From Trypanosoma brucei (Eukaryota): 64,000 bases of DNA. The notes below the pieces were generated by a model. The model saw only the letters and a program-made list of their open reading frames with translations. It was not told the DNA's origin and made no database searches. Shown one piece after another: positions 13,241 through 30,639 of the stretch (positions are counted from its first letter, which is position 1; each line of letters starts with the position of its first letter). The translations under genes and the position numbers were made by a program. Where the stretch lies: contig CP000071.1 of the NCBI GenBank assembly GCA_000002445.1, positions 2,368,001-2,432,000 of the forward strand, written 5' to 3'.

Positions 13241-14664
13241 TTTTGTTCCCTTTCCCATTTCTTTGCTTTCTTTCGTCTTTTTTATTTTATTTTTCCATCT
13301 AAACACTCGTTTCAATTACTGGAAGCCACGTTTCCCCCACCACTACTTCAAACCAGCGACATGATGAATATAATGCAAAGAAAGGGAGGGGAGAATGATG
13401 ACTAACTAAGTTGCGTTCACTTGCAGCAAATATGCGAGAGGAGACGGAAAGGAGGAGGGAAGGTGGGAAATATATATATATATATATACTTATATATGTA
13501 CTGTGGTGGAAAGGGTTGTGCAGTGTATTGAAGCTTTCGCAGGCTTCTGCGACTTTTTGTTGTTGGCACTAATGTCTTAAAGTGTTTGTGAGTGTTGAGT
13601 AAACTAATGTGCAGATGCATAAATATCTGTACCTATGTGTATCTCTGTGTTTGTGTTTGTGTTTGTGTTTGCGTCGATGCGTGTGCTATTTCTCCCTTTG
13701 ATCATATTCCTTATGTTTAGTTTTGTTTAGCACACTGAATGAATAAAACATTAATGTAGCCAACAATAGGAACAACAATATTAAGAAATAATAGTAATAG
13801 CAATGACGGTAGCAACGGTGATAATGATAATAAATGTGGTGAGGTGCCGTAGGAAGCAGTGCGACAGGAGTTTTTTTTTTCCCCGTTCCCCCCTCTGCTG
13901 AGTCCCCATGTCTCGGCTTCAGCAGTAATTGGTATAGCGTTCCGTGTTGAATTGCAATGCCTTTCATCCCCGTTAGGCTTGTAAAAAAAAAAAAAAGTAA
14001 TTATTAAAATAATTAATGACTTCTTTTGTTGAGTCACCATTGTTGTATCGGATACTTGTGTGATGCGAGACCTTCAGGGGAATTTCGTTTTGTGGTGTAG
14101 CCGCTACGGGATGGACGTGACACAACTAAATGGTGGTGTTGGTCCATCATGAGGGGATTGTTCAAACAACGTGAAGACGTTGGGACATGTTTGTTATGTC
14201 AAGGTTAAAACAAACAAACAAACACCCCAACCCAAGGGAAGTATTACCGTTGCTTCTTCTTTAGAGGGGGGGAGGAGGAGGAGGGAGGAGTGACGTATCG
14301 TGTTTTTCTGTAGGAGAGACTTTCTTGCAGTTTTTTTCTTCTTCCTCGTCGCTGGTGTGCTTAATCAGCGGTGGTATTCGCTCCTCTGCTTTTGTGAGAC
14401 ATATTTTCCATCCTTCCAATTTTTAGATTTATGTGGACTCTAATAGTTGTGTGCCCTGTTGGAGGTGTAGTAGCAGGGTCATGTATTTATTGTTGGTCAA
14501 TGATTTTGCATCCGCTTCATGCTGCAGTGGATGTTTCTTGCGCGGATATTAATTTCCGTTACAACCTTCACTCCTTTTAAGAATCTACAAATTTCCTCAC
14601 GCTATAGGTGTGTGTGAACCACTCGTGAAAAAGATATAAAAAAAATAGCAGTGGGATCATTACG

Positions 14665-15423
14665 ATGAAAGTGCAGGGGTACGCCAATGTGGTGACACTT
14701 CCTAACGTAACGGGGCGCGTCATAATTGTAGGAGACATTCATGGATGTCGGGCGCAATTAGAGGATTTGCTTCGTGCGGTCTCCTTCAAGCAGGGGAGTG
14801 ACACATTAGTTGCGGTGGGTGACTTGGTGAACAAAGGACCAGATTCCTTTGGTGTGGTCCGCCTTCTCAAACGCCTTGGGGCTTACAGCGTACTCGGCAA
14901 TCATGATGCGAAACTGCTCAAACTTGTCAAAAAATTAGGCAAGAAGGAGTGTCTAAAGGGGAGGGACGCAAAATCTTCCTTGGCTCCGCTGGCGCAATCC
15001 ATACCTACTGATGTGGAGACATATTTGTCGCAGCTTCCGCACATCATCCGCATCCCCGCCCATAATGTGATGGTGGCGCATGCTGGACTTCACCCGCAAC
15101 GTCCAGTGGATCGCCAATACGAGGATGAAGTCACCACTATGCGTAATCTTATTGAGAAAGAACAAGAGGCCACGGGTGGAGTGACGCTTACGGCCACGGA
15201 AGAAACAAATGATGGCGGCAAGCCGTGGGCCTCGATGTGGCGCGGTCCTGAAACGGTGGTGTTTGGCCACGATGCACGGAGAGGTTTGCAGGAACAATAC
15301 AAACCGTTAGCAATAGGATTGGATAGCCGCTGCGTGTACGGCGGGAGACTCTCCGCCGCGGTATTTCCTGGTGGTTGCATCATTTCGGTCCCGGGTTGGA
15401 ACGGAGCGTCGGCGGCGGCCTGA
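14665..15423 (+). CDS. ApaH-like phosphatase / symmetrical bis(5'-nucleosyl)-tetraphosphatase-like metallophosphoesterase (kinetoplastid ALPH-type)
   Basis: GDIHGC ... DTLVAVGDLVNKGPDS ... VLGNHD is nearly collinear with the E. coli ApaH motifs GDVHGC / GDLVARGPGS / GNHD. The protein is 252 aa. Confidence 0.75.
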   Translation: MKVQGYANVVTLPNVTGRVIIVGDIHGCRAQLEDLLRAVSFKQGSDTLVAVGDLVNKGPDSFGVVRLLKRLGAYSVLGNHDAKLLKLVKKLGKKECLKGRDAKSSLAPLAQSIPTDVETYLSQLPHIIRIPAHNVMVAHAGLHPQRPVDRQYEDEVTTMRNLIEKEQEATGGVTLTATEETNDGGKPWASMWRGPETVVFGHDARRGLQEQYKPLAIGLDSRCVYGGRLSAAVFPGGCIISVPGWNGASAAA

Positions 15424-16320
15424 AACTTTTCCCAGATGACAGTTTATTTTTTTTTTTTTCGGTCGCCGTGTACTATATGTTCTCGTCTAAAGATTTATCA
15501 AAGTGTGCCGTTGTGTAGTCGTTTGTCTTGATGTGAATTATGTTTGAGTGGGCCGCATATGTTGACTGCGCAGAGAAGACAACACCACTGAGATGGTGAT
15601 GATGCCACCTGGCGGTTGTTCCGCTTCATTACGGCGGTGGTGATGATGTTTAACCTTTGTTGCTGTGCTCAGCCTCTTTGAACATCTGATTCAGTTTGGA
15701 CCGCACAACTCTCAAAAGTCATATTCCCCTCTCCCTTCAAAATTAATATTCCGTTTTATGATTCTGCATGTGGTGTGGCAACGTGCTTACATGTATCTAT
15801 CTATCTATATTTGTGTTACACTCTCTTACAGGTTACAACCCTAACCCTTGGCCGCCTGCAGCACAACTATTTTTACCAAAAGCAGAAAAACGTAAAAGTG
15901 AAGAATTGGGGTGAAAAACATGGTGGTGGATACGCGTGATACCAGATGTGACATCTTGGTCACCAGGGAGTACGTAAACGATGTTTTTTTTCCTCCTTTT
16001 TTGAATGGTGTGGTTGGTGACGGCAGCGTCAAAGGACGTGACCCGTGGGATCTCATGTGGTTTCTGGCTTAAAGGTAACAAAACCGCTTATGTTAAAGTT
16101 GCTTCCGGCGCTGCACCTTTGTTTACAGTGAAGACGGGAGTTCACTAATGGTATGAAGAGGAGTATTTCGATGCACCGCATCCAGCGGTAACCACTGCGG
16201 CGTCAGAGACATCTATCAGGGATTGGTGTGACGATACTCCAGCAAGTTAAGGAAAGTGCAAATGCATGCTATTGTTAGGGCCTCTAATGCTGTTGTTATT
16301 AAATGCTTAGGCACCTTATT

Positions 16321-16407: not shown

Positions 16408-16503
16408 CCTGTACTAATAACTTTGGCGCTAGTAGGGTGCCAAAGGGTATACTGATTCCTGGCATTACTGTTTGTTTTGTTTTATTGTTCGGCTCTGGGA
16501 CGC

Positions 16504-18723
16504 ATGCATCGAAAAAGCATCGTGTCGAACTATTTTATATCACCTGAGTATTCTGTGGCGGGCTCACGTGTTTTCACCCCAAATGCATCCGCTGAGGAAG
16601 TAACATTGAGTGACGCACCGACGCAACTCTCGTTGCAAATAACATCACCGAAGACATCTATACGTCCGTCGGCGGTGTCTTCATTGCGTTTTAAAAGGGG
16701 ACGAGAAGCCTCATGGCACGGTCGGTACCATAACGGTTCCGCGGGGGAAAACACAATGGGTTTTATGGAGGCAGTGGCGGCTTCCGTTTCCCGCCGCGGT
16801 GACGTGGTGGCACATTCTTCTTGTGAATCCCACCAAAACTTCATGTCGCGTGCAGGTAATTTTGTGGAATCTACGACACACAGTGATTCGTCGGACGGGT
16901 ACCGGTATGCGAAGTTGCCCCGGAAGGAGCTTATTATGATTGCGGGAGGTGAAGATAGCGGGGAAAAGGAAGATTTGGCTAGTTTTCGGAAGGACTTGAG
17001 GCGTTTGCAGGAGCGACACGAGCAACTGAACAAGGTTGTGGAAGAGACACGGGAAGAGTTGAGACGGAGCTGGGAGGAAAATGACCGACTCAAGATGCGT
17101 GCAGACCAGTCGGTAAAAGAGCTGCGGCTGGAAGTGGCGCAGCTGTCTAAACATGTCCAGCTTTTGGAAGGACGGAGTACATCCGTAGAGCGCTCACTCG
17201 CTTCTCTAAACGGAATGGAGAGTCTGGTGGAATGCGTTCAGGGTGAGCTTCCTTCTTTGCGCAAGGAAATTGGCCGGAACACTACTTCAATAGCAGTGCT
17301 GGAAAGGCTGTTAGAAGATATGAAGCACCAGCCGCGTGTCTCACAAGTCGCAGTGAATTCAGTTTCGGCTTCTGCTAGCGGGCAGGTCACCTCCCTTGGG
17401 GCTCCTCCACCTGCGTTGTTGAATGACGAACGCGCAACTAGTCATTCTTCCACGACCCCATTTTCGTTTGGTGGTGCAAAACCTAACGCCAACCTCAGTG
17501 GACAACTGACTTCCTCACCTGCTGCTTCCAACTCCGTTGCGGGATCGAAGCCGGAGCCAGCATCGGCTAGCGCACCTTCATTCACTGGTGTAAGTGCAAC
17601 TGCAGGATCTGTTGACAAGCCGTCCAATCCCTTTGGAGTTTCTGCAGCATCTGCAACCACGGCTGGTGGGTCAGCGCCGGCTCCGGCATCAAATGGCACA
17701 CCTTCATTTGGCAGCGCAGTTACAACTACGGCCCCCGGAGGGAATGCATCTTCTCCGTTTGACTCATCCAAGAATGCTGGAGTCTCGGCAACAGCAACTG
17801 CGTCATCTGCCTCATATACATTCGGTGGTGCAAGCACACCTGCATCCTCCACTAACAAACCTCCCAATCCGTTTGCTGCTACCGTAAGCTTTTCGCCTGC
17901 TGATGGGAAAGGGGCAACACCAGCATTGGCAGGCACATTTTCGTTTAGTGCTACCGGCGCGGCCGATACTCTCAGCGACAAACCGCCAACTACGCCCGGT
18001 GCTGCCCCGCCAGTTGCGAGTCCGGCAACAAGTGCGCTTCCAACGAATCCGTTCTCACCTGGCAGCACAACTGCGACTGCACCAACTGCCGGGAAACCAA
18101 CCACATTATTTGGTGGTTACGCGACGGGTGATAGTTCAGCAGCCACGTCAGCTCCGGCACCAGGTAGTGCGTTTTCTTTTGGTGGCATAGGCACCACTGC
18201 ACCTGCTTCCACCGTTGGTTTTAGCTTCGGAGGCATGCCTAAGGTTGCCGAGACATCAACTGCTGGCGTCAATACAACAATATCACCATTTTCTAGGGCT
18301 GGTTCCACGGCAGTGACAGGTGCCACAGGCTCTCTAGGGGGGTTTTTATTCCCTTCCTCTTCTTCAGCGACGGCAGCTCCACTTGCGAGGGGCTCAGAGG
18401 TGAAGAATGACGTGTTTTCCAACGCGAAAGCTGTTGCTTCGTCCGGTGCGTCGTCTGTATTTGGCACTGGCGCTTTGATGTCTGCTGGGGTCTTGAGTCC
18501 TCCCACACCCTTCGGTGCGTCCGCTGGAGTAACTAATCCATTCGCTTCGTCGCAACGGGATGGAGAGAATGCTTCTAACCCATTTGGTCAGGGTGTACAA
18601 GGCTTAGCCGCTGCTTCCACTGGCACTGCGCTACCATTGCTTAGCCAGCCGCCGATCGGGTTCAGTGCACCGACCGTAAACGCCAATTTGGGTGCCCGTA
18701 GGAGGACACCGAAGCGGTTCTGA
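16504..18723 (+). CDS. FG-repeat nucleoporin (N-terminal coiled coil plus long S/T/A/G-rich region with SFG/PFG/NPFG repeats)
   Basis: At least 20 xFG repeats (PFSFGG, NPFGV, SPFDS, YTFGG, NPFAA, FSFSA, NPFS, SFSFGG, GFSFGG, PFGAS, NPFASS, NPFGQ). Heptad coiled coil at aa ~160-290. The track ORF starts at TTG 16477; the first ATG is 16504, about 100 nt after a polypyrimidine tract. Confidence 0.65.
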   Translation: MHRKSIVSNYFISPEYSVAGSRVFTPNASAEEVTLSDAPTQLSLQITSPKTSIRPSAVSSLRFKRGREASWHGRYHNGSAGENTMGFMEAVAASVSRRGDVVAHSSCESHQNFMSRAGNFVESTTHSDSSDGYRYAKLPRKELIMIAGGEDSGEKEDLASFRKDLRRLQERHEQLNKVVEETREELRRSWEENDRLKMRADQSVKELRLEVAQLSKHVQLLEGRSTSVERSLASLNGMESLVECVQGELPSLRKEIGRNTTSIAVLERLLEDMKHQPRVSQVAVNSVSASASGQVTSLGAPPPALLNDERATSHSSTTPFSFGGAKPNANLSGQLTSSPAASNSVAGSKPEPASASAPSFTGVSATAGSVDKPSNPFGVSAASATTAGGSAPAPASNGTPSFGSAVTTTAPGGNASSPFDSSKNAGVSATATASSASYTFGGASTPASSTNKPPNPFAATVSFSPADGKGATPALAGTFSFSATGAADTLSDKPPTTPGAAPPVASPATSALPTNPFSPGSTTATAPTAGKPTTLFGGYATGDSSAATSAPAPGSAFSFGGIGTTAPASTVGFSFGGMPKVAETSTAGVNTTISPFSRAGSTAVTGATGSLGGFLFPSSSSATAAPLARGSEVKNDVFSNAKAVASSGASSVFGTGALMSAGVLSPPTPFGASAGVTNPFASSQRDGENASNPFGQGVQGLAAASTGTALPLLSQPPIGFSAPTVNANLGARRRTPKRF

Positions 18724-18798: not shown

Positions 18799-20152
18799 TC
18801 TGTCTTTTTACCGTTCGGTTGATGGGAATCGAAGATTTGGGGTTTTAGGCGCGCTTTTTAAGTGGAGTGTAGGTGTGAAGCGCAAAGCAGGTAAGCGAAG
18901 GCGGAGACTGTTTAAGTAAAGCATGCTGGGCTTCTGAGGAAATGGGAGGGGATTATAAAATGTGGGGACTTAATGAATGGGAAGAGGGAGAGAAGCGATA
19001 TCTCTCCGAGCGTCGCATCTTGCAGAAGGATCCGTTTAGAGGTGTGTCCAATTGTTTGTTGTGGCGGTTCAGGTCTTTTGAAGGTTTGCGTTTCTGTCAT
19101 TTATGCTGCAGGATTTTTTTTTTTGTGGTGTGGATGAGGAGGGAAGTAAGTTTATTATTTTTTAGAAAAAGGAAAAACAACCTCCTCACCTGCGTTTTCA
19201 TCTACTTTTAGCTCTTTTTTGCACCCGACTTACCTCAACACCAGACATGCAAACAAACTTTGAAGACCTCGCGAGAGGCGAATTTTTCCTTTCCACGTGC
19301 CAATTCCCTCCGGATGGGGAACACAAAACGTTAGACTTTTTTTTGGTATGTTCAGTGCTGCTATAATAAATGTGACTTTTCCAGCTACCAGTTGGTCTTA
19401 GAGGACATCATCTCTTTTCGTTCTCTCTTTTTTTTCAGTCCTTATTTGAACCATTTCTCTCACTTTCATCTTAGGGTATCCGAGTTTAGAAACATCTTAG
19501 GGTGCTCGGCGTTTGTTTAGGCAATTTCTCACTCCCTCTTTCCCTCCTTCTCACTGCTTTCACTTTCACCTTCATTATTGTTATTATTCCCCCCCTCTAC
19601 AGTTTGCGAGCGATGCTAATTACCTGGTCAAATCTTTCCTCCTTGGAAGCTGTTGCATTCACATGTGCCACCACTATCGTTACTCTTTTTAGTGCATTTG
19701 CGCATTCACAGCTGTTGTGATACGCAAATGTTTGTGTGTGGGTTGCAGGCGTGAGTTTTGTTGGTTTCTGCACATGTTTCTCAGCGATGTTTATGAGGTT
19801 AACCTCGTCTCCTCCTCCTCCTCTGCGATTTCAGTTGTTTTCGTTAGAATGTAATGGTTAGAAGCCAAAGAACAATATCAATGCGAAACTTTTGAATCAA
19901 GGGCGAAGCAGAAAGAGAGAGAGAGTCGTGAAGAAAAGCTCTTCTTCTGAGTTTCTAAAGTTCTATTTCTAAGTCTGTCCTAACTGGGCGGGCGACGCTT
20001 GCTTTTGCTCAACATCAGCTAGCATGTGCGGTGGCAACATCTCCCATGTGGGTTTGCACCCCAAATCACTTCATTAGGGTAAACCTCAACGTTAGCTCCA
20101 CTACACCACGGAACTTTTGGAGAATAACGGGACGTTTTGTGCCGACAAAATT

Positions 20153-20341
20153 AAATGCTCCTTTCATAGTGTGCGTGACGGACCCGATATGTTCCCTGTT
20201 ACTGATAGTTCCGTAATGGTATATGATATTGAGGAGGATAGCTACAGTGAACTAAAGGAACGCTTTGCTAATGAAAGGGATGTGTTTTCACGTTTTCTCT
20301 ACGATCCAGGCGATGGTGTGAAAACTTTCGACTGCTCGTAG
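20153..20341 (+). pseudogene. relic 3' end (last ~62 codons) of a GT31 glycosyltransferase gene, with no 5' part
   Basis: Near-identical to the 3' end of the full GT gene at 28060-28248 (…KCSFHSVRDGPDMFPVTDSSVMV…KTFDCS*). The sequence upstream of 20153 is unrelated and there is no in-frame ATG. Confidence 0.5.
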
Positions 20342-20754
20342 GCATTTTACCTATGTGCTGCGTACTCGCATTTTACGTTTAGTAAATGGTTATCGAACTA
20401 TTTTGGAATATGTTTGTTTTTATTTCAGTCTGTGTGTAGTACACTGTTGCCTTAGCTTTTTTCGTAGTGTCTCCTCTATTGCCTCTGTCACCATTAGTTT
20501 ACCGCAGATAATGAATTGTACCATTACTAATTTTGTGTTGCGTTTTGATGAAAACTAAAACTTTGAAGGTTTGCATGTCTTGACATTGCATGGTTTTGTG
20601 TGTTGGGTGAAACATCCTTTACGGTTTTTGTACCATAATGCGGACCCCCTAACGTAATTGTGTGTTTTTTCCTTGTCTTTACCTACCCACAGTTCTTGTC
20701 ACAGTATGCTTCAATTTGCTATTGCATGTGTTCTGGCCAGCGGCTCAAACTATG

Positions 20755-20790
20755 ACTTTTTCTTCTCTTTCCCCATTTGTCACATTACCT
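20755..20790 (+). promoter_or_regulatory. polypyrimidine tract upstream of Cys-rich gene 1 (identical copy at 28662-28697 upstream of Cys-rich gene 2)
   Basis: ctttttcttctctttccccatttgtcacattacct. The first downstream AG is at ~20848, suggesting the real start codon is 20868 or 20886. Confidence 0.4.
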
Positions 20791-20795
20791 GATAC

Positions 20796-22448
20796 ATGTG
20801 TGTGTATTGTGCATTTGATAATGAATGGTTATTACTGTTTCATTTTTATAGCAGTTTTACCAAGGAGATGCGGACCAGAACAACAATGACGAGCGGTGCG
20901 CCTGCACGGCGCATGACTTCTCAGGGTCATGTAACTGCTTGCGTATCCAATAATAATGACTCTATGGCTGCAAAGCTGAGGAGGTGCCCCAGCTGTCAGT
21001 GCTACGGTTGTAGCGCCTTCACTGACCGATTGATTTTTTGTGTGGGAGAATGCAGGAATTGTGGCGAGGAAGTTGATCTTCATGATCTTGCAGCTCATGA
21101 GGCGCAGTGCATGGGACTAGGAGCGGTTGAGGGCACTCTTATCATCTGTGCGAAATGTTGTCGGGGGCTGAAACCAGGCAACATCCCCACCACTTCCGAA
21201 ACCAATCACGACAAGGAACAAAAAGAGAAAAACGTTCTATCTTTTTCCAAGGGGAAATGCTGCAAGGGACCGTATACACATCAAACCCATGCTGTATGCA
21301 GAGGGGAATGCAGAAAGAAGAATGACGGGAGCAACGTATCTTCCGTTCGCTGTGGGGGTTCCTGCAATGGTCATCGCAAAGACGGGCCCTGTGCTGTTTG
21401 TTGCGACACGCTTCCACACCTTACCCAACGTGAGGAAGGCCATGTCCACTGCAAGGGTCATGTGTTTGAGTGTACCACATGCGGACAGGTGTTTATGACT
21501 GCTGTCAAGTACGCCATGCATCTTTGTTGCGGTCGCACAGATCCTGAGCCAAAGTCTTCTACCTGTGGGCTATCGGAAGATACTGTAAAGGATCGTGGAG
21601 GTTGTTCTTACCCCACATGGGAGACTTCGTGTCTCAGTGTTTCGCCATTAAAAGGTCCTGCCCCTCATACGCCAGTTGCCACGAGGCCGCAATCCGCAAC
21701 TACCACCTCGTTGCCATCATATGCTGAATGCCCATCGCCGTCCCCAAGTTTACTGCGAGCGGCGGCTGTCAAGCCTCCCAGCCGTTCCTTTGAGAAATCA
21801 TCTGGTGCGAGCAGTGGTGTTCTTGGAGGTAACCAAGCAAAGAAGTCCAAATCCCGACTCCGTGGCGATTCCTCCACTGAGGCAAGGGATGATTTGGGCA
21901 GGCGTCAACCGAATAAAGGAATACATGCGGCGGAGGGAACAGCCAGTTCCAACTTCAGGGTGTCTGGGCGTGCAGAAAGTGTACCGCGAAACCGAGTGTC
22001 AGAAGAAGGTGGTTGTAGCACAGGCCTAGTTGGACGCAATAATGTTTGGAGGCCACTACCTCTATTTGCGGGAGACGGTGGGAGGAGAATGGGACCGTCG
22101 CGAATGTCGTCGGCTGCTGGGAGTTTAAGGAGCTCTGTGATGGATTCTCGTGAGCGTGACGGAGAGCATGGAACAACAATTTGGAGAACCAGGGAGGCAC
22201 AACCGGATAGCTTCATTCCAATTGTTGAGAAGACTTCACCCTCTCACCATCAGAGTCACTCTGCCACAGTTGTCGACTGTATGGGTTCCTCCGTGAGCGT
22301 TACTACGATTAACAGCCGCGTAGCTGCACCACTTATACTCGTCAGCCCTTGCCGCAAGAGGGAAGCAGTGAGTGATACAGTGTCAATTGAAGTAATCACG
22401 AGGGACACGGTTGGTGTCGACGCCGCTGTGATGAAACGCATTTGCTAA
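20796..22448 (+). CDS. Cys-rich zinc-finger protein, paralogue 1 (TRAF-like/C2HC-type Cys scaffold, C2HC finger, long S/R/G-rich disordered tail)
   Basis: 550-aa ORF. Polypyrimidine tract at 20755-20790. The likely real start is MRTRTT at 20868 or MTSGAP at 20886. Cys spacing CPxC…GC…CxxC…CG…DLxxHxxxC and HVHCKGHVFECTTCGQVFMTAVKYAMHLCC. Paralogous to 28703-30502. Confidence 0.55.
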   Translation: MCVYCAFDNEWLLLFHFYSSFTKEMRTRTTMTSGAPARRMTSQGHVTACVSNNNDSMAAKLRRCPSCQCYGCSAFTDRLIFCVGECRNCGEEVDLHDLAAHEAQCMGLGAVEGTLIICAKCCRGLKPGNIPTTSETNHDKEQKEKNVLSFSKGKCCKGPYTHQTHAVCRGECRKKNDGSNVSSVRCGGSCNGHRKDGPCAVCCDTLPHLTQREEGHVHCKGHVFECTTCGQVFMTAVKYAMHLCCGRTDPEPKSSTCGLSEDTVKDRGGCSYPTWETSCLSVSPLKGPAPHTPVATRPQSATTTSLPSYAECPSPSPSLLRAAAVKPPSRSFEKSSGASSGVLGGNQAKKSKSRLRGDSSTEARDDLGRRQPNKGIHAAEGTASSNFRVSGRAESVPRNRVSEEGGCSTGLVGRNNVWRPLPLFAGDGGRRMGPSRMSSAAGSLRSSVMDSRERDGEHGTTIWRTREAQPDSFIPIVEKTSPSHHQSHSATVVDCMGSSVSVTTINSRVAAPLILVSPCRKREAVSDTVSIEVITRDTVGVDAAVMKRIC

Positions 22449-23595
22449 AGTGCTCATTTAAGTGAAGGAGCGTTGAAGGTCCGTTAGTTAGAACACGTAC
22501 CAACATGACGTTTACTCTCTTAATTTGTTTTATTCCATTTTTCACTAAGGCACCTTTACTGCACGTGCTGCAGCAGGTATTTACTCGCTCGTGAAGTGCT
22601 GAGCCAACACTCTCAAACCAACGGTGGACCTCGCGGCGATGCGACTGTGCTTAGTTTCTATTTGCGAGAGTGACACGTGTATATGTTTGTGTTGTCTCGC
22701 ATATTTACATCATATACTTTCCTATTCATGTGAATGGGTGTATCCCTTACTTGTTTTTCCAGGGTTTTACTGTGCACGGTGTGGTGGCGGACGTTGGGGT
22801 TGGAGTGTCTAAAAGGCTAATTAAGAAAGTGTTTTTATTTTTATTTTGGGAATTACATATTTAAAGGGACTGACAATGCAGCCGGGATTAAAAGAGGAGA
22901 CTTTATTATTAGCAGTGTATGATGTTAGATACTTTCTTTCCACCGCCCGTGAGTACCACTGATTCAACATGGTTTCTAATCTCGCTATTGGTGCGTCGGG
23001 CAATATTTCTCTCTTTTTGAGATGGGCACTTTAATTCCTAATCATTAGACCCCGTTTCACGTAAGTGGGCCTTCAGATACTTCCAGCTTCTTTCTTTTTT
23101 TTTTTGCCCATCTCTTAATGTACGCTATGAATTACAGTGGTGCTGTGGGGAAAGGTGCGTGATGAAGGCGTCTCCCACTTTTTTTTTTTAATTATCCAGT
23201 TTTGCTAAAGTGGGCGTGTGCTACCATTTCCATATGAGAGGTGCAGTCATACCTCCAATCCTGAGCTCTCATTGCTGGTTCGTAAGTATCCGTAGCATAT
23301 AAACGTTTTTTATTTTTCTCTATTTTTCTGCTTTGAGGAGAGTCACACTTCTCGTTGGTTCTTTACATGTGGTGTTGTCTGCGAAATACTAATTACTGCA
23401 GGAATGTGTCCTCCGTACACTGGCCGACTCATCAAAATGGCGCATTAGGCTTGGATTTCTCGTTTAATTTTTATACTTTCTCTTCCATCCTCGTTTGTAG
23501 GTACATGATATATTATCCACTCGAAGACTCACCAGGAAAATGGAGGGGGGGGGTGAGGGATTTAGTCACGGTGCTGAAGTGGCATTTGTGCTACA

Positions 23596-24285
23596 GTGTT
23601 ACTCTTATCTTTATGTACAGTAGCCATTTACCTTACGCCCCGTCAAAATAATGGAATGAAACATCGTGAGAAGGCAGTTATGCAGGTACCGAGTGTGCGG
23701 AGTCACGTAGTTAACGTTCCCTCCAAATATCCCTTGTGGATACGAGAGGCTCTCGCTTACGTCCCTTCCACAGTTTTGCGTCAGTGGGAGGATGCCGAAT
23801 ATTTGGTGGTGTTTGGTGTGCCTTCTGTGGACATAAATGTGAGACGGCGACGGAGGCATTTGCAGCGGATGACTTGTTGGGCGTATGGTGGCGTTGCGCG
23901 GCGTGCAAATGACTTCGTGGGAAGTATGCTGCCATTATATATCCTTGCACGTCACCCCGACAATAACTACGTCTTCACGTCTGCTGCCTTAGAGGAGGCT
24001 GAGAAGTGGAATGATGTAATTACACTTCCAATGAATGAGGGTCGTGTGCCGACCAAAAAGCAAGTGGGCCAGGATGGAAAATGGGGTGTTGAAGCAGAGG
24101 TTGGTATGAGTCGCAAGACATTCATGTGGTTTGATTTGTCGCTGATTGTTTTCTCACGCGCCGCGTATATTGCGAAAGGCGATGATGACATGTTTTTGCG
24201 TGTTCCACAGTACCTTGTTGACTTACGCGATCTACCACGACGAGGGGTATATTGGGGTACGATTGATATGGATGGTGCTGTGTGA
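23596..24285 (+). pseudogene. GT31 glycosyltransferase copy truncated at both ends (GT-a). It retains the RxTW and DDD motifs but lacks an ATG-initiated N-terminus and the C-terminal EDxxxG half
   Basis: The ORF begins at GTG just after an in-frame TGA at 23575. Homology to the full copies starts at 23583 (inside the signal-anchor codons). The reading frame runs from WGTID at 24267 straight into the inter-GT spacer sequence and stops at 24285. Confidence 0.5.
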
Positions 24286-25560
24286 TTTTGTGGGTATGCT
24301 GAGCTGTCTGTTGGTTACGACTTGGCATGCAAAGAGTTTAACGATCTGTACAGTGTTTATTGTAGCGAGCACACAGAGCTGAGGTGTGTAATCAAGAACT
24401 GTATCAAGTTAACAAACAATTTAAATTCTTTTATATGCCTTCTTTCCTTTTTCCACTCTTCCACCTGCCGTAATAGCATTTGTTATATTTGTCATTTTGT
24501 CTGATTATAATTACACTTGATATGTTGTTGCCCTTCCTGTATTCTTGTCGGAGGTAAGTCTATGTCCCTGTCGGAGCCCCGGAAGCGTGAATTTAGGCAA
24601 AGAAGTATCGCGAGGCGCAGCATTTGTGCTACAGTGTTACTCTTATCTTTATGTACAGTAGCCATTTACCTTACGCCCCGTCGAGATAATGGAATGAAAC
24701 ATCGTGAGAAGGCAGTTATGCAGGTACCGAGTGTGCGGAGTCACGTAGTTAACGTTCCCTCCAAATATCCCTTGTGGATACGAGAGGCTCTCGCTTACGT
24801 CCCTTCCACAGTTTTGCGTCAGTGGGAGGATGCCGAATATTTGGTGGTGTTTGGTGTGCCTTCTGTGGACATAAATGTGAGACGGCGACGGAGGCATTTG
24901 CAGCGGATGACTTGTTGGGCGTATGGTGGCGTTGCGCGGCGTGCAAATGACTTCGTGGGAAGTATGCTGCCATTATATATCCTTGCACGTCACCCCGACA
25001 ATAACTACGTCTTCACGTCTGCTGCCTTAGAGGAGGCTGAGAAGTGGAATGATGTAATTACACTTCCAATGAATGAGGGTCGTGTGTCGACCAAAAAGCA
25101 AGTGGGCCAGGATGGAAAATGGGGTGTTGAAGCAGAGGTTGGTATGAGTCGCAAGACATTCATGTGGTTTGATTTGTCGCTGATTGTTTTCTCACGCGCC
25201 GCGTATATTGCGAAAGGCGATGATGACATGTTTTTGCGTGTTCCACAGTACCTTGTTGACTTACGCGATCTACCACGACGAGGGGTATATTGGGGTACGA
25301 TTGATAGATATACCGTTGGCAGAACAAGGTTTAACTACGCTTTTGGTTGGTGCTACACCCTTGCTCGTGATGTTGCTAAGCAGTTTGTTTCTTATGGACC
25401 ACTGCGCAAAGTAGTGAACAGTTCCTCGTCAGTGCTCAGTATGTTTACGATTAAGCGTTTCTATCTTCTGGCTGAGGACGCGATGGTTGGACTAACATTG
25501 CAGAGGGCCGGGTACGCTAGCAAAATACTTTACATTCGGGAAAAGAAATGCTCCTTTCAT
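24268..25560 (+). repeat. ~1.29 kb direct repeat: inter-GT spacer/5' leader (249 bp) plus the first ~333 codons of the GT gene. It is ~100% identical to 26782-28074, and its GT part is also present at 23583-24267
   Basis: Offset 2514 bp between copies b and c (identical minus-strand shadow ORFs 24649/27163, 24749/27263, 25005/27519). Offset 1038 bp between copies a and b. Confidence 0.8.
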
Positions 25561-25734
25561 AACGTGCACGCCGGGCCAACTGTTGTTGCTGTCACCGATA
25601 GTTCCGTAATGGTGCACCATGTTAGGGAGGATGAATACGAGAAACTAAAGCAACGTTTTGCTAATGAGAGGGATGTGGCTCCACGTTTTATTTACAGTAT
25701 TTATGAGGGTATGAAGGGTTTTAGTTGCCGGTAG
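24562..25734 (+). CDS. UDP-Gal/UDP-GlcNAc-dependent glycosyltransferase (GT31, beta-1,3-transferase-like), type II membrane protein, copy GT-b with a divergent C-terminal ~58 aa
   Basis: Motifs RRRRHLQRMTCW (RxTW), YIAKGDDDMFL (DxD) and LAEDAMVGL (EDxxxG). Short basic cytoplasmic tail plus TM (ATVLLLSLCTVAIYL). The track ORF starts at TTG 24517; the first ATG is 24562. It is 100% identical to GT-c up to 25560, then ~75% identical. Confidence 0.75.
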   Translation: MSLSEPRKREFRQRSIARRSICATVLLLSLCTVAIYLTPRRDNGMKHREKAVMQVPSVRSHVVNVPSKYPLWIREALAYVPSTVLRQWEDAEYLVVFGVPSVDINVRRRRRHLQRMTCWAYGGVARRANDFVGSMLPLYILARHPDNNYVFTSAALEEAEKWNDVITLPMNEGRVSTKKQVGQDGKWGVEAEVGMSRKTFMWFDLSLIVFSRAAYIAKGDDDMFLRVPQYLVDLRDLPRRGVYWGTIDRYTVGRTRFNYAFGWCYTLARDVAKQFVSYGPLRKVVNSSSSVLSMFTIKRFYLLAEDAMVGLTLQRAGYASKILYIREKKCSFHNVHAGPTVVAVTDSSVMVHHVREDEYEKLKQRFANERDVAPRFIYSIYEGMKGFSCR

Positions 25735-26646
25735 CTGGAGAATTTGCTCGTGGCTGCATAGAGGCACTTCTTTACTGTGGTTGATTTTTTTTTTTTTCGT
25801 TCCTTGGAGTTGCTAAGGTGTGTATGTATTCTATGCTCGTGCGTTATGATGCATTAATTGAATTTTTGTTGTCTATGTCCGTCGTCTTGTTGATTGACAG
25901 TTGACTTGATTTCTCCTCTTGTGCTATTTGGTCACTCGTGCTGTGGTGCGGTGTCTTTTCACGAGGGGGGGGGGCTGACGAGCACGGGGGTATTTCTTTA
26001 ATGATTCTAATTGATTTGCCTCGCGATGGTGAAGGTGCACGAAACATCTTGTAATTTAACGCGTGCTGTGGTGGACAGGCATTGGTGCGTCGCATTTCGT
26101 GGATTAAATATACACGGACACAACCAGCCCTTTCATCGGTTATCTGGCTGTGAATTGTACTACCACCATTATTGTAACGCGGTTGTTTGTACTGTTAATT
26201 ATGTGTGTACAGTAAATCGCTCTCTACTTGAGATACTAATGTGGAAAATTGATGTTGCGTCCCATTGTTTCACTTTTGGACTCATCATGGAGAATTTGTG
26301 TGCTCACTCTTCCTGCCACTAAGTTCATTTCGCATTTCTTTGTGTTTGAGAATGATGTAAGAGTTAGTAGACATGTTATGTTCCCCCATTTGTGACATGG
26401 GGTAAACCGCAGCCACACCGCAAAACAATTACTGCAAATCCCCCTTTAATACATCTTTTCTCCGGAATTGTGTGCCCGTTCATTAGCGTTTCTCTCCGTA
26501 GCGGGCGATGAACTGCATGTTAAACTCAACGCAATCGAACATGCAGCCAGTTGCATTGTGCGGACCGCGACTGTATACGGTGATCCTGCAGGAAAAGAAA
26601 GCGCGAGAACAAATTGGAGTTAAAGGTACTGACCTCAAAGCTCACT

Positions 26647-26781
26647 TCGTGAGCGTCACTACGATTAACAACCGCGTAGCTGCACCACTTATACTCGTCA
26701 GCCCTTGCCGCAAGAGGGAAGCAGTGAGTGATACAGTGTCAATTGAAGTAATCACGAGGGGTATATTGGGGTACGATTGAT
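26647..26781 (+). other. chimeric recombination footprint: the last ~38 codons of the Cys-rich gene (…VSVTTINNRVAAPLILVSPCRKREAVSDTVSIEVITRG) fused via an 'acgaggg' microhomology to a GT-internal segment (gtatattggggtacgattgat), then the inter-GT spacer
   Basis: 26647-26760 matches 22294-22407 (Cys-rich paralogue 1 3' end). 26761-26781 matches the GT internal sequence at 24247-24267 and 25285-25305. 26782-27030 matches the spacer at 24268-24516. Confidence 0.5.
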
Positions 26782-28074
26782 ATGGATGGTGCTGTGTGAT
26801 TTTGTGGGTATGCTGAGCTGTCTGTTGGTTACGACTTGGCATGCAAAGAGTTTAACGATCTGTACAGTGTTTATTGTAGCGAGCACACAGAGCTGAGGTG
26901 TGTAATCAAGAACTGTATCAAGTTAACAAACAATTTAAATTCTTTTATATGCCTTCTTTCCTTTTTCCACTCTTCCACCTGCCGTAATAGCATTTGTTAT
27001 ATTTGTCATTTTGTCTGATTATAATTACACTTGATATGTTGTTGCCCTTCCTGTATTCTTGTCGGAGGTAAGTCTATGTCCCTGTCGGAGCCCCGGAAGC
27101 GTGAATTTAGGCAAAGAAGTATCGCGAGGCGCAGCATTTGTGCTACAGTGTTACTCTTATCTTTATGTACAGTAGCCATTTACCTTACGCCCCGTCGAGA
27201 TAATGGAATGAAACATCGTGAGAAGGCAGTTATGCAGGTACCGAGTGTGCGGAGTCACGTAGTTAACGTTCCCTCCAAATATCCCTTGTGGATACGAGAG
27301 GCTCTCGCTTACGTCCCTTCCACAGTTTTGCGTCAGTGGGAGGATGCCGAATATTTGGTGGTGTTTGGTGTGCCTTCTGTGGACATAAATGTGAGACGGC
27401 GACGGAGGCATTTGCAGCGGATGACTTGTTGGGCGTATGGTGGCGTTGCGCGGCGTGCAAATGACTTCGTGGGAAGTATGCTGCCATTATATATCCTTGC
27501 ACGTCACCCCGACAATAACTACGTCTTCACGTCTGCTGCTTTAGAGGAGGCTGAGAAGTGGAATGATGTAATTACACTTCCAATGAATGAGGGTCGTGTG
27601 TCGACCAAAAAGCAAGTGGGCCAGGATGGAAAATGGGGTGTTGAAGCAGAGGTTGGTATGAGTCGCAAGACATTCATGTGGTTTGATTTGTCGCTGATTG
27701 TTTTCTCACGCGCCGCGTATATTGCGAAAGGCGATGATGACATGTTTTTGCGTGTTCCACAGTACCTTGTTGACTTACGCGATCTACCACGACGAGGGGT
27801 ATATTGGGGTACGATTGATAGATATACCGTTGGCAGAACAAGGTTTAACTACGCTTTTGGTTGGTGCTACACCCTTGCTCGTGATGTTGCTAAGCAGTTT
27901 GTTTCTTATGGACCACTGCGCAAAGTAGTGAACAGTTCCTCGTCAGTGCTCAGTATGTTTACGATTAAGCGTTTCTATCTTCTGGCTGAGGACGCGATGG
28001 TTGGACTAACATTGCAGAGGGCCGGGTACGCTAGCAAAATACTTTACATTCGGGAAAAGAAATGCTCCTTTCAT
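26782..28074 (+). repeat. second copy of the 1.29 kb spacer+GT-5' repeat
   Basis: See 24268-25560. Confidence 0.8.
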
Positions 28075-28248
28075 AGTGTGCGTGACGGACCTGATATGTT
28101 CCCTGTTACTGATAGTTCCGTAATGGTACATGATATTGAGGAGGATAGCTACAGTGAACTAAAGGAACGCTTTGCTAATGAAAGGGATGTGTTTTCACGT
28201 TTTCTCTACGATCCAGGCGATGGTGTGAAAACTTTCGACTGCTCGTAG
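27076..28248 (+). CDS. UDP-Gal/UDP-GlcNAc-dependent glycosyltransferase (GT31), copy GT-c, full length
   Basis: Same motifs and architecture as GT-b. The track ORF starts at TTG 27031; the first ATG is 27076. Its 3' end is identical to the relic at 20153-20341. Confidence 0.75.
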   Translation: MSLSEPRKREFRQRSIARRSICATVLLLSLCTVAIYLTPRRDNGMKHREKAVMQVPSVRSHVVNVPSKYPLWIREALAYVPSTVLRQWEDAEYLVVFGVPSVDINVRRRRRHLQRMTCWAYGGVARRANDFVGSMLPLYILARHPDNNYVFTSAALEEAEKWNDVITLPMNEGRVSTKKQVGQDGKWGVEAEVGMSRKTFMWFDLSLIVFSRAAYIAKGDDDMFLRVPQYLVDLRDLPRRGVYWGTIDRYTVGRTRFNYAFGWCYTLARDVAKQFVSYGPLRKVVNSSSSVLSMFTIKRFYLLAEDAMVGLTLQRAGYASKILYIREKKCSFHSVRDGPDMFPVTDSSVMVHDIEEDSYSELKERFANERDVFSRFLYDPGDGVKTFDCS

Positions 28249-30639
28249 GCATTTTACCTATGTGCTGCGTACTCGCATTTTACGTTTAGTAAATGGTTAT
28301 CGAACTATTTTGGAATATGTTTGTTTTTCTTTCAGTCTGTGTGTAGTACACTGTTGCCTTAGCTTTTTTCGTAGTGTCTCCTCTATTGCCTCTGTCACCA
28401 TTAGTTTACCGCAGATAATGAATTGTACCATTACTAATTTTGTGTTGCGTTTTGATGAAAACTAAAACTTTGAAGGTTTGCATGTCTTGACATTGCATGG
28501 TTTTGTGTGTTGGGTGAAACATCCTTTACGGTTTTTGTACCATAATGCGGACCCCCTAACGTAATTGTGTGTTTTTTCCTTGTCTTTACCTACCCACAGT
28601 TCTTGTCACAGTATGCTTCAATTTGCTATTGCATGTGTTCTGGCCAGCGGCTCAAACTATGACTTTTTCTTCTCTTTCCCCATTTGTCACATTACCTGAT
28701 ACATGTGTGTGTATTGTGCATTTGATAATGAATGGTTATTACTGTTTCATTTTTATAGCAGTTTTACCAAGGAGATGCGGACCAGAACAACAATGACGAG
28801 CGGTGCGCCCCGTGTGTATTGTGGAGCGTTCGTGCGTAACAGGAAGCAACGGAAGATTTTATGCTCGCTAAATAGAAAGCTAAAGCTGTGCCCGTATTGT
28901 GGACGTCTCGGTTGCAGCCGTCACGTTAGACGGTGTGGGGGACAATTAGTGAATTGTTCCGTATGTGGCTCAAATGTGGTGATTCGTGATCTTGATGACC
29001 ATTTTTTTCGTTGTGGGGAGCAGTGCTCCCCTAGAGTTACTGTTGGTGGTGAAGAGGGGTGTTGCGAAGAGCGGAAGGTGTGTGAAACATATGATGCATA
29101 CTATAGTGAATGTAGCAATGGAGGTTGCAGTGGGGACTGCGCTCACCCCGCATGGAATGAAGTGCCCCAGGGGAGACAGGATAAAGGCGATGTCTGTGTT
29201 GTCTGTGACCTGTTGCTAGTGCATCCTGGGGGTGAGGAAGGCCATGTCCACTGCAAGGGTCATGTGTTTGAGTGTACCACATGCGGACAGGTGTTTATGA
29301 CTGCTGTCGAGTACGCCATGCATCTTTGTTGCGGTCGCACAGATCCTGAGCCAAAGTCTTCTACCTGTGGGCTATCGGAAGATACTGTAAAGGATCGTGG
29401 AGGTTGTTCTTACCCCACATGGGAGACTTCGTGTCTCAGTGTTTCGCCATTAAAAGGTCCTGCCCCTCATACGCCAGTTGCCACGAGGTCGCAATCTCCT
29501 TCGTCGATGCTTGTGTCGCCCGAGATCTCGTTTTCGTGCCCCAGATTTATGCAATTGACAACTGTCAAGCCTCCCAGCCGTTCCTTTGAGAAATCATCTG
29601 GTGCGAGCAGTGGTGTTCTTGGAGGTAACCAAGCAAAGAAGTCCAAATCCCGACTCCGTGGCGATTCCTCCACTGAGGCAAGGGATGATTTGGGCAGGCG
29701 TCAACCGAATAAAGGAATACATGCGGCGGAGGGAACAGCCAGTTCCAACTTCAGGGTGTCTGGGCGTGCAGAAAGTGTACCGCGAAACCGAGTGTCAGAA
29801 GAAGGTGGTTGTAGCACAGGCCTAGTTGGACGCAATAATGTTTGGAGGCCACTACCTCTATTTGCGGGAGACGGTGGGAGGAGAATGGGACCGTCGCGAA
29901 TGTCGTCGGCTGCTGGGAGTTTAAGGAGCTCTGTGATGGATTCTCGTGAGCGTGACGGAGAGCATGGAACAACAATTTGGAGAACCAGGGAGGCACAACC
30001 GGATAGCTTCATTCCAATTGTTGAGAAGACTTCACCCTCTCACCATCAGAGTCACTCTGCCACAGTTGTCGACTGTATGGGTTCCTCCGTGAGCGTTACT
30101 ACGATTAACAACCGTGAAGCTGCACCGCTGAGCACTGTTAACCCACAGTGCAGGAAGAATGCAAGTCGGTGCCAACCTCGTGACGTAGCTAGCATGCTTT
30201 CCGGAACGCGCTGCACAGTTTGCAATGTGGCCTCGCGTTTTGGCGATGGTTCGGGTGCGGGGTTGCGGCGTGCGGCATCTTTTAGTGGGTGTGGAAGGCC
30301 TCGAATGAGATCCGCTAGGAGGTGCGGGTCCCCTTCAGGGGATGTCGGGTGTTGTGTTCCGACGTCAGATGACACATATAGGCAGAAATCGCTGGAAATG
30401 GTTTTGGGGCAACGTGCCCGTGAAGTGCTGAGCCAACACTCTCAAACCAACGGTGGACCTCGCGGCGATGCGACTGTGCTTAGTTTCTATTTGCGAGAGT
30501 GACACGTGTATATGTTTGTGTTGTCTCGCATATTTACATCATATACTTTCCTATTCATGTGAATGGGTGTATCCCTTACTTGTTTTTCCAGGGTTTTACT
30601 GTGCACGGTGTGGTGGCGGACGTTGGGGTTGGAATGTCG
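28060..30639 (+). repeat. segmental duplication block A2 (partner of 20153-22810)
   Basis: See block A1. Confidence 0.8.
28703..30502 (+). CDS. Cys-rich zinc-finger protein, paralogue 2
   Basis: 599 aa. Upstream region and first ~36 codons are identical to paralogue 1. The N-terminal ~150 aa has a divergent sequence but conserved Cys spacing. The central ~330 aa is near-identical. The C-terminal tail diverges (extra Cys/Arg-rich segment). Confidence 0.55.
   Translation: MCVYCAFDNEWLLLFHFYSSFTKEMRTRTTMTSGAPRVYCGAFVRNRKQRKILCSLNRKLKLCPYCGRLGCSRHVRRCGGQLVNCSVCGSNVVIRDLDDHFFRCGEQCSPRVTVGGEEGCCEERKVCETYDAYYSECSNGGCSGDCAHPAWNEVPQGRQDKGDVCVVCDLLLVHPGGEEGHVHCKGHVFECTTCGQVFMTAVEYAMHLCCGRTDPEPKSSTCGLSEDTVKDRGGCSYPTWETSCLSVSPLKGPAPHTPVATRSQSPSSMLVSPEISFSCPRFMQLTTVKPPSRSFEKSSGASSGVLGGNQAKKSKSRLRGDSSTEARDDLGRRQPNKGIHAAEGTASSNFRVSGRAESVPRNRVSEEGGCSTGLVGRNNVWRPLPLFAGDGGRRMGPSRMSSAAGSLRSSVMDSRERDGEHGTTIWRTREAQPDSFIPIVEKTSPSHHQSHSATVVDCMGSSVSVTTINNREAAPLSTVNPQCRKNASRCQPRDVASMLSGTRCTVCNVASRFGDGSGAGLRRAASFSGCGRPRMRSARRCGSPSGDVGCCVPTSDDTYRQKSLEMVLGQRAREVLSQHSQTNGGPRGDATVLSFYLRE

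What the first reader, a model, noticed from the sequence alone, without database searches (positions are those of the whole stretch)
20140..20175. Recombination junctions cluster at the same 20 bp of the GT gene (codons KCSFH)
Two independent breakpoints fall within ~20 bp of each other in GT coordinates. (i) The relic at 20153 becomes identical to GT-c exactly at 'aaatgctcctttcat' (GT-c 28060), with unrelated sequence upstream. (ii) GT-b and GT-c are 100% identical up to 'tcctttcat' (25560 / 28074) and only ~75% identical afterwards. This suggests a recombination or gene-conversion hotspot, or a module boundary, at this position of the GT genes. The result is GT copies with interchangeable C-terminal ~60-residue modules (…FHNVHAGPTVVAVTDSSVMVHHVREDEYEKLKQRFANERDVAPRFIYSIYEGMKGFSCR versus …FHSVRDGPDMFPVTDSSVMVHDIEEDSYSELKERFANERDVFSRFLYDPGDGVKTFDCS).
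Basis: seen in the sequence. Interest (0 to 1): 0.55.

Follow-up and report, generated by a model that had tools for sequence, protein, structure and literature searches.

The report
Gene-conversion boundary set by a pseudogene stub
Two recombination junctions coincide in a Trypanosoma brucei glycosyltransferase array most likely because a truncated gene stub shares sequence with the intact gene only from that point on, so sequence copied between them cannot reach further; this is ordinary tandem-array gene conversion, not a hotspot.

Summary
The sequence facts are real. The window is T. brucei TREU927 chromosome 8. It holds a GT67/GT31-like glycosyltransferase (GT) array interleaved with zinc-finger genes. 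A headless GT stub ("relic") becomes homologous to GT-c exactly at 20153, which is GT nt 985, codon K329 of KCSFH. GT-b and GT-c differ at 1 of 1322 nt up to nt 1000, then at 35 of 144 nt.

The two junctions are probably not independent. The relic junction is identical in T. b. gambiense and T. b. equiperdum, so it is old. The GT-b/GT-c boundary at this site exists only in 927. In the other two genomes the last GT copy carries the b-type patch up to nt 1120. In 927, the relic and GT-c share strain-specific variants across a 750-bp homology island whose left edge is the relic's truncation point. This indicates gene conversion between them since the strains diverged. Relic-type sequence cannot extend left of nt 985, so any such tract must end there.

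Other junctions are scattered (GT nt 59, 717, 745, ~1085, ~1100, ~1125). None falls at KCSFH in T. congolense or in 105 family proteins. The tail belongs to the single GT-A catalytic domain and is not a separate module.

Verdict: a known kind of concerted evolution, of low interest.

The parts
20153..20341 (+). GT relic: codons 329-390 plus stop of a GT gene (c-type tail), with no head. The junction with unrelated upstream DNA is at 20152|20153.
   Evidence: It carries a private H352Y change (VMVYD) at a near-invariant His, which fits a pseudogene.
20153..20902 (+). 750-bp homology island, relic side: GT tail, intergenic region and the first ~107 nt of ZnF1. It is bounded on both sides by non-homology.
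   Evidence: 99.6% identical to 28060-28809. It shares 927-specific variants with the GT-c side at offsets 17, 122-135, 339, 405, 433 and 599.
28060..28809 (+). 750-bp homology island, GT-c side.
20796..22448 (+). ZnF1, a zinc-finger-like gene downstream of the relic.
   Evidence: It is a paralogue of ZnF2 (65% amino-acid identity overall, 95% nt identity in the 3' part).
23582..24268 (+). GT-a: truncated GT copy (GT nt 59-745) with its own 5' end. It ends at a 29-bp repeat.
   Evidence: Gambiense and equiperdum have an intact first copy here (346 and 338 aa).
24240..24268 (+). 29-bp GT-internal fragment (GT nt 717-745), repeated at 26754-26782 and at 25278-25306 / 27792-27820. It is the likely site of the 927-specific ~1.47-kb deletion that truncated GT-a.
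   Evidence: Overlapping alignments. The unit period is 2509 bp in equiperdum but the GT-a to GT-b offset in 927 is 1038 bp.
24562..25734 (+). GT-b (XP_847632.1), 390 aa, with b-type tail.
25562..25681 (+). b-type patch (GT nt 1001-1120). In GT-b the b-type end continues to the stop codon.
26631..26777 (+). Fragment of a ZnF gene 3' end (ZnF1 aa 494-542) upstream of GT-c, a remnant of a third GT-ZnF unit.
27076..28248 (+). GT-c (XP_847633.1), 390 aa. The head is nearly identical to GT-b; the tail from nt 1001 is relic-type (c-type).
28060..28075 (+). Shared 16-mer AAATGCTCCTTTCATA (codons K329-H333 plus 1 nt). The GT-b/GT-c boundary lies somewhere inside it.
   Evidence: Together with the preceding AAG it forms the longest exact nucleotide match between T. 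brucei and T. congolense GT genes (18 nt; the next longest is 11).
28703..30502 (+). ZnF2, a zinc-finger-like gene downstream of GT-c.
   Evidence: (weak TRAFD1/XAF1 zinc-finger hit)

Best explanation
The locus is an old array of alternating glycosyltransferase (GT) and zinc-finger (ZnF) genes that evolves in concert through homologous-recombination gene conversion and unequal exchange.

The first GT of the array lost its head in the T. brucei lineage. What remains is a relic that starts at GT nt 985. From nt 985 the relic, the downstream intergenic region and the start of ZnF1 form a 750-bp island. This island is homologous to the corresponding part of the last unit (GT-c tail, intergenic region, start of ZnF2).

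In the 927 lineage a conversion tract homogenised this whole island. The most likely direction is relic as donor and GT-c as recipient. Strand invasion and copying need homology, and there is none upstream of 20153. Relic-type (c-type) sequence in GT-c therefore cannot begin before nt 985. The first site at which b-type and c-type sequence can be told apart is nt 1001. So the GT-b/GT-c identity break follows from the relic's truncation point and is not a second independent event.

What is shown: the junction positions; the age of the relic junction; the restriction of the b/c boundary to 927; within-genome sharing of strain-specific variants; the absence of homology upstream of the relic.

What is inferred: the direction of transfer and the molecular pathway (RAD51-type homologous recombination or synthesis-dependent strand annealing).
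For: 1. The relic junction is at the same base in 927 (20153), gambiense (L001 4131) and equiperdum (L002 4119).

2. In gambiense and equiperdum the last GT copy is b-type from nt 1001 to 1120 and c-type only from nt 1129. A b/c boundary at KCSFH exists only in 927.

3. The 927 relic and 927 GT-c share states not seen in the gambiense or equiperdum relics or last copies. These are at offsets 17, 122, 132, 133, 135, 339, 405, 433 and 599 from nt 985. This indicates conversion in at least one lineage since the strains diverged, reaching to within 17 nt of the homology edge.

4. No homology exists upstream of 20153. On the right, the island ends at offset ~750 in 927 and gambiense.

5. A second tract boundary in the same genes also sits at a homology discontinuity. 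The b-type patch in the last copies of gambiense and equiperdum stops at nt 1121-1128, just where the b and c ends become dissimilar. T. congolense copies diverge at the same place, after VVAPR.

6. Direction of transfer. The c-type patch is the long branch: at residues where b and c differ, T. congolense matches b at 7 and c at 1. The 927 pair carries FS where b-type copies, the other two relics and T. congolense all have AP, at a PR motif that is the family majority. In T. congolense the first GT, which occupies the relic's position beside the FG-repeat gene, has the c-like end GVKTFGC.

7. Concerted evolution is general at this locus. Eight head variants are fixed between 927 and gambiense/equiperdum yet shared by all copies within each genome. 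Copy number differs among the three genomes.
Against: The direction of transfer is not proven. With three genomes and no close outgroup, 'c patch in the last copy is ancestral and was overwritten by b-type sequence in gambiense and equiperdum' is equally parsimonious on distribution alone. If the relic arose instead as a partial duplicate of a c-tailed last copy, the position of the boundary would still need either later back-conversion from the relic or coincidence.

The c-type tail keeps every family-conserved residue. It therefore evolved mostly under constraint and is not simply decayed pseudogene sequence.

The full-length gene with a c-type tail is seen only in the 927 reference assembly, so an assembly problem cannot be excluded.

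The 18-nt stretch spanning KKCSFH is unusually conserved at nucleotide level between species, which leaves some room for a sequence-driven effect.
Confidence: 0.68

Rival explanations
1. Plain coincidence. The relic truncation and the end of GT-b/GT-c homogenisation are unrelated events that happen to lie within 16 nt of each other.
For: These GT genes carry many junctions: nt 59, 717, 745, 985, ~1081-1090 (gambiense relic), ~1095-1107 (equiperdum relic) and 1121-1128. With this many, one near-coincidence is not rare, about 15-20% by my arithmetic.
Against: The boundary sits in the narrowest interval the data can resolve next to the homology edge. In addition, 927-specific variants shared by the relic and GT-c show that the two really have exchanged sequence up to that edge. 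A causal link therefore needs no extra assumption.
Confidence: 0.14
2. A sequence-driven recombination hotspot at KCSFH. The highly conserved 16-18-nt block acts as a preferred crossover or microhomology site among diverged GT paralogues.
For: AAGAAATGCTCCTTTCAT is the longest exact nucleotide match between T. brucei and all four T. congolense copies: 18 nt, against 11 for the next longest. The boundary between the 76%-identical b and c tails lies inside this identical block.
Against: No junction was found at this site in the T. congolense array, whose breaks lie at columns ~95-170, 762-772, 853-915 and ~1144. None was found in gambiense or equiperdum apart from the inherited relic junction. 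None was found among 105 family proteins, where candidate breaks fall near residues 69-74, 166-176, 246-248 and 320. The relic junction joins the block to unrelated DNA, so identity between paralogues cannot explain it. No inverted repeat flanks the site. An 18-nt run at six conserved codons is only mildly unusual; I estimate about 0.15 expected per gene.
Confidence: 0.08
3. A protein module boundary. The last ~60 residues are an exchangeable functional module, for example one that determines acceptor specificity, and selection favours exchanges at its edge.
For: Three tail combinations occur in intact genes. The c-type tail retains all conserved residues.
Against: The AlphaFold2 model (mean pLDDT 86; tail block means about 89-97) puts residues 329-390 in strands 332-334, 350-352 and 384-387 and helix 356-365 of one GT-A domain. 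That domain aligns with the GT31 enzymes B3GalT5 and B3GNT2. The tail contains near-invariant H352, which lies 46 residues after the ED motif. The metal-binding His376 of B3GNT2 lies 43 residues after its catalytic Asp333 (PMC7948737). That H352 corresponds to His376 is my inference. Mosaic boundaries inside the tail also differ between genomes.
Confidence: 0.05
4. An assembly artefact in the 927 reference. Relic-derived reads were placed in the tail of GT-c.
For: The two islands are 99.6% identical. The c-tailed full-length protein occurs in only one assembly. Jackson et al. 2010 (PMC2854126) note that assembly methods have limitations in quantifying repeat copy number.
Against: A false join would have to occur within a 16-nt shared block that has 24% divergence on one side. 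GT-c differs from the 927 relic at three sites, and at each of them GT-c has the state found in the other genomes. It is therefore not a copy of the relic reads.
Confidence: 0.05

Closest known systems
Concerted evolution and mosaic gene conversion in T. brucei tandem gene arrays (Jackson 2007, PMC1855330; Jackson et al. 2010, PMC2854126)
   Same: Paralogues within a genome are more alike than orthologues between genomes. Transfers are biased and segmental and often span stop codons and UTRs. Mosaics are subspecies-specific and copy number differs (for the papers; here).
   Different: I found no mention of this two- to three-copy chromosome-8 GT/ZnF array among the passages returned by term searches of those papers. 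Here one participant is a headless gene stub, which fixes the tract end.
Pseudogene-templated segmental gene conversion, as in VSG mosaic formation in T. brucei (general knowledge)
   Same: A non-functional gene fragment probably donates sequence to an intact, expressed paralogue, and tract ends are set by the available homology.
   Different: This is a core-chromosome Golgi-type enzyme gene, not an antigen gene. There is no evidence of programmed or selected switching, and only a single event is seen.
GT67 / β3-glycosyltransferase (GT31-like) family of kinetoplastids (PMC9472816; PMC5853035)
   Same: The WG, KGDDD and ED motifs are present, the predicted fold is GT-A and matches GT31 structures, and the sources name the proteins 'UDP-Gal or UDP-GlcNAc-dependent glycosyltransferase'.
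   Different: The specificity of these chromosome-8 copies is unknown to me. [quoted passage not shown]

Membership tests
Recombination hotspot | Two or more independent events at the same site | tested here: not met
   The relic junction is one event inherited by three genomes. The 927 b/c boundary depends on it, because homology starts there.
Recombination hotspot | Recurrence of the site in related arrays or species | tested here: not met
   No junction at KCSFH in the T. congolense array. None among 105 family proteins apart from 927 GT-c itself.
Recombination hotspot | A local sequence or structure that promotes breakage or exchange | tested here: inconclusive
   No inverted repeats. An 18-nt block identical between species is present, but it encodes a conserved motif.
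Concerted evolution by gene conversion in a tandem array | Paralogues within a genome share variants that distinguish genomes | tested here: met
   Eight head sites and four or more island sites.
Concerted evolution by gene conversion in a tandem array | Mosaic tracts with discordant relationships along the gene | tested here: met
   The bb, bc and cc tails, and partial b-type tracts in the gambiense and equiperdum relics.
Concerted evolution by gene conversion in a tandem array | Copy-number and structural variation between strains | tested here: met
   Two intact copies in gambiense, three in equiperdum, and two plus one truncated copy in 927.
GT67 / GT31-like β3-glycosyltransferase | DxD (KGDDD) and ED catalytic motifs | tested here: met
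   K218, D220, D222 and E305 are invariant; G219, D221 and D306 are conserved in at least 90% of 32 sequences.
GT67 / GT31-like β3-glycosyltransferase | GT-A fold resembling GT31 enzymes | tested here: met
   AlphaFold2 mean pLDDT 86. Foldseek hits to B3GalT5, B3GNT2, B3GalT6 and C1GalT1 with E-values from 1e-11 to 1e-7.
GT67 / GT31-like β3-glycosyltransferase | Pfam Galactosyl_T above the gathering score | tested here: inconclusive
   22.7 bits against a cut-off of 23. Most homologues carry a precomputed PF01762 hit.
GT67 / GT31-like β3-glycosyltransferase | Glycosyltransferase activity and specificity | not testable with these tools
   Needs enzymology.
Exchangeable protein module | The boundary separates independently folding domains | tested here: not met
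   The tail forms strands and a helix of the same GT-A domain and holds conserved core residues.

The most novel reading that the evidence does not exclude
A headless pseudogene stub acts as a sequence reservoir that rewrites the C-terminal ~57 residues of a Golgi-type GT67 enzyme. This region includes the neighbourhood of the putative metal-binding His. The result would be strain-specific enzyme isoforms (927 'cc' versus gambiense/equiperdum 'bc') with different properties, a small-scale housekeeping-gene analogue of VSG mosaic formation. A weaker variant of this reading is that the conserved KKCSFH 18-mer is a real preferred exchange point in GT67 genes.
Probability: 0.08. Interest if true: 0.4.

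Novelty: new member of a known kind. Interest (0 to 1): 0.15.

Why it matters
This is mainly a caution for reading such patterns. When identity break-points coincide in paralogue families, one should first ask whether a single structural discontinuity sets the limit of homology for later conversion tracts, before invoking a hotspot.

For trypanosome biology it documents one more strain-specific mosaic. The 927 reference copy XP_847633.1 has a C-terminus that is probably derived from a pseudogene and is not seen in gambiense or equiperdum. Anyone expressing or knocking out these GT67 genes from the reference sequence should be aware of this.

Tried and rejected
- Diverged GT remnants upstream of the relic: searched by tblastn with T. 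brucei and T. congolense proteins at E up to 10. Nothing was found beyond the KCSFH codons themselves.
- Homology between the region upstream of the relic and the T. congolense syntenic region or its 624-aa gene: none.
- Inverted repeats around either junction: none.
- Residue-level link between H352 or H333 and B3GNT2 His376 by profile search against PDB sequences: only the DxD region aligned, at E about 0.02-0.1. That correspondence therefore remains inference from spacing and conservation.
- Contact analysis on the AlphaFold2 model: the coordinates are not exposed to scripts.
- Family-wide break-point scan: done at protein level on representatives of 90%-identity clusters. Its power is therefore limited and rate heterogeneity can mimic breaks.
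- More T. brucei strains (Lister 427, T. evansi, field isolates): the protein cluster has only 7 members, all from the 927, gambiense and two equiperdum assemblies.
- Systematic gene identifiers: not verified. PMC5853035 mentions Tb927.8.8090 and Tb927.8.8100 as chromosome-8 UGTs. I did not confirm that they are these copies.

Full report
WHAT THE WINDOW IS

The two full-length GT proteins are exact matches to XP_847632.1 (GT-b, 24562-25734) and XP_847633.1 (GT-c, 27076-28248) of Trypanosoma brucei brucei TREU927, on a 2.48-Mb record. The sources name them 'UDP-Gal or UDP-GlcNAc-dependent glycosyltransferase'. They carry the KGDDD and ED motifs. Pfam Galactosyl_T scores just under its threshold. 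An AlphaFold2 model (mean pLDDT 86) matches the GT31 enzymes B3GalT5, B3GNT2, B3GalT6 and C1GalT1. This agrees with the published description of the kinetoplastid GT67 family as a GT-A fold family diverged from the β3GT lineages (PMC9472816).

ANATOMY OF THE LOCUS

Searches give the following order:
- an FG-repeat gene (16477-18723);
- 1.4 kb of unrelated DNA;
- the GT relic (20153-20341, codons 329-390);
- ZnF1 (20796-22448);
- truncated GT-a (23582-24268, GT nt 59-745);
- GT-b;
- about 0.9 kb of unique DNA;
- a fragment of a ZnF 3' end (26631-26777);
- a 29-bp GT-internal fragment (26754-26782);
- GT-c;
- ZnF2 (28703-30502).

The relic unit and the GT-c unit share a 750-bp island (20153-20902 = 28060-28809, 99.6%), plus most of the ZnF genes at about 95% identity.

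CHECK OF THE OBSERVATION

- Relic homology starts at 20153 (GT nt 985).
- The GT-b and GT-c heads differ at one synonymous site in 1322 nt.
- The first tail difference is at nt 1001 (25562/28076).
- After that, 35 of 144 nt differ.
- The 15-mer AAATGCTCCTTTCAT occurs only at the three stated places.

COMPARISON WITH OTHER GENOMES

I fetched the same locus from T. b. gambiense DAL972 (L001) and T. b. equiperdum (L002).
- The relic junction is at the identical base in all three genomes. It is therefore one old event.
- The second boundary is not shared. In gambiense and equiperdum the last GT copy is b-type from nt 1001 to nt 1120 and switches to c-type only between nt 1121 and 1128.
- The relics are mosaic too. 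The gambiense relic has b-type states from offset ~105 and the equiperdum relic from offset ~122.

Tract ends inside the tail are therefore scattered.

EVIDENCE FOR EXCHANGE BETWEEN THE RELIC AND GT-c

Across the island, the 927 relic and 927 GT-c share states that differ from those shared by the gambiense and equiperdum relics and last copies. These are at offsets 17, 122, 132, 133, 135, 339, 405, 433 and 599. The heads behave in the same way: eight variants separate 927 from the other two genomes but are shared by all copies within a genome. This is the signature of concerted evolution.

It shows that the relic and the last copy have been homogenised in at least one lineage since the strains diverged. 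The shared states reach to within 17 nt of the left edge of homology. That edge is absolute: neither DNA alignment nor permissive translated searches find any GT similarity upstream of 20153.

WHY THE TWO JUNCTIONS COINCIDE

Relic-type sequence can enter GT-c only where the two are homologous, that is from nt 985 rightwards. The first base at which b-type and c-type can be distinguished is nt 1001. A conversion tract covering the whole island therefore produces exactly the observed pattern.

The same logic explains the other sharp boundary in these genes. The b-type patch in the last copies of gambiense and equiperdum stops at nt 1121-1128, where the b-type and c-type gene ends cease to be alike. 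T. congolense copies also diverge there, immediately after VVAPR.

DIRECTION OF TRANSFER (INFERRED)

Three observations favour the relic as donor.
- The T. congolense array runs FG gene, a 624-aa gene, GT403, ZnF, GT374, ZnF, GT364, ZnF. Its first GT, in the position of the T. brucei relic, ends in ...GVKTFGC, like the c-type end ...GVKTFDCS. Its second GT ends in HFVYS..., like the b-type end FIYS.... The c-type sequence therefore seems native to the first unit.
- The c-type patch is the long branch. At the 16 residues where b and c differ, T. congolense agrees with b at 7 and with c at 1.
- The 927 pair has FS where b-type copies, the other two relics and T. congolense all have AP.

After the exchange the 927 relic gained three private changes, including H352Y at a near-invariant His. 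This fits a sequence under no constraint.

The distribution among three genomes alone cannot root the change, so the direction stays an inference. The homology-limit argument holds for either direction, and also for an older transfer.

TESTS OF THE HOTSPOT AND MODULE IDEAS

Hotspot.
- In T. congolense the four copies differ at the 5' end, in patches at alignment columns 762-772 and 853-915, and after column ~1144. They do not differ at column 1004, where KCSFH lies.
- A max-chi-square scan of all pairs among 105 family proteins found the residue-334 break only in pairs that involve 927 GT-c.
- With the chromosome-8 cluster removed and thresholds relaxed, candidate breaks fall near residues 69-74, 166-176, 246-248 and 320.
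- Within the T. brucei locus the junctions lie at nt 59, 717, 745, 985, ~1085, ~1100 and ~1125.
- No inverted repeats flank the site.
- One point in favour of a sequence effect: AAGAAATGCTCCTTTCAT is the longest exact nucleotide match between the T. brucei and T. congolense genes, 18 nt against 11 for the next. It encodes the family-conserved C-x-F-H motif, and I estimate such a run as only mildly unusual.

Module.
- Residues 329-390 are confidently modelled as part of the single GT-A domain.
- They include near-invariant H352. Its spacing from the ED motif (46 residues) resembles that of the metal-binding His376 of B3GNT2 from its catalytic Asp333 (43 residues) (PMC7948737). The correspondence is inferred, not aligned.

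RELATION TO WHAT IS KNOWN

Jackson (2007, PMC1855330) described mosaics, biased conversion and breakpoints spanning stop codons and UTRs in T. brucei tandem arrays. [quoted passage not shown] The present case is another instance. Its one particular feature is that a truncated copy fixes the tract end.

VERDICT

The hotspot and module interpretations are not supported. The best explanation is a conversion tract that ends at the limit of homology set by the relic (confidence about 0.68). The rivals are coincidence (0.14), a sequence-driven preference (0.08), a functional module (0.05) and an assembly artefact (0.05). Interest is low.

Noticed in passing
window 23582-24619, 24240-24268 and 26754-26782: 927 appears to derive from an equiperdum-like three-copy array by a ~1.47-kb deletion between 29-bp direct repeats (GT nt 717-745 and a copy of that fragment upstream of the next unit). 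This left truncated GT-a fused to the 5' region of GT-b. Gambiense and equiperdum have an intact first copy (346 and 338 aa) with its own N-terminus.
   Followed up: partly
window 26631-26777: A 147-bp fragment of a ZnF gene 3' end (ZnF1 aa 494-542, 80% identity) sits upstream of GT-c. The equivalent ZnF-end fragment precedes each bc-type GT copy in gambiense and equiperdum. It is a remnant of a third GT-ZnF unit, as in T. congolense.
   Followed up: partly
L002 4119-6296 versus 13491-15668: In T. b. equiperdum the ZnF genes of the first and last units are homologous over 2.18 kb (98.4%). In 927 and gambiense their N-terminal ~500 nt are unrelated. This looks like a much longer conversion, or a different ancestral arrangement, in that strain.
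   Followed up: no
window 28057-28074 (also 25543-25560); L003 and L004 GT copies: The 18-mer AAGAAATGCTCCTTTCAT (codons KKCSFH) is identical in T. brucei and in all four T. congolense GT copies. The next longest exact match is 11 nt, even though the proteins are only ~55% identical.
   Followed up: partly
L004 2984-4858: T. congolense has a 624-aa gene between the FG-repeat gene and the first GT. It has no counterpart anywhere in this T. brucei window. The event that beheaded the first T. brucei GT may have removed it too.
   Followed up: partly
window 22587-22670 versus 30416-30499: The last 28 codons of ZnF2 are present 100% conserved downstream of the ZnF1 stop codon. ZnF1 (550 aa) therefore seems to have lost its C-terminal extension through an indel or frame change between 22330 and 22587.
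   Followed up: no
family proteins P0008/P0038 (T. theileri) and several T. cruzi pairs: Protein-level identity breaks suggest mosaic GT genes in other trypanosomes near residues 166-176 and 246-248. The second position coincides with the 29-bp fragment site in T. brucei. This may reflect rate heterogeneity next to a hypervariable loop rather than recombination.
   Followed up: partly
window 43955-44433: An unrelated tandem duplication of about 234 bp (43955-44199 versus 44189-44433, 98% identical).
   Followed up: no
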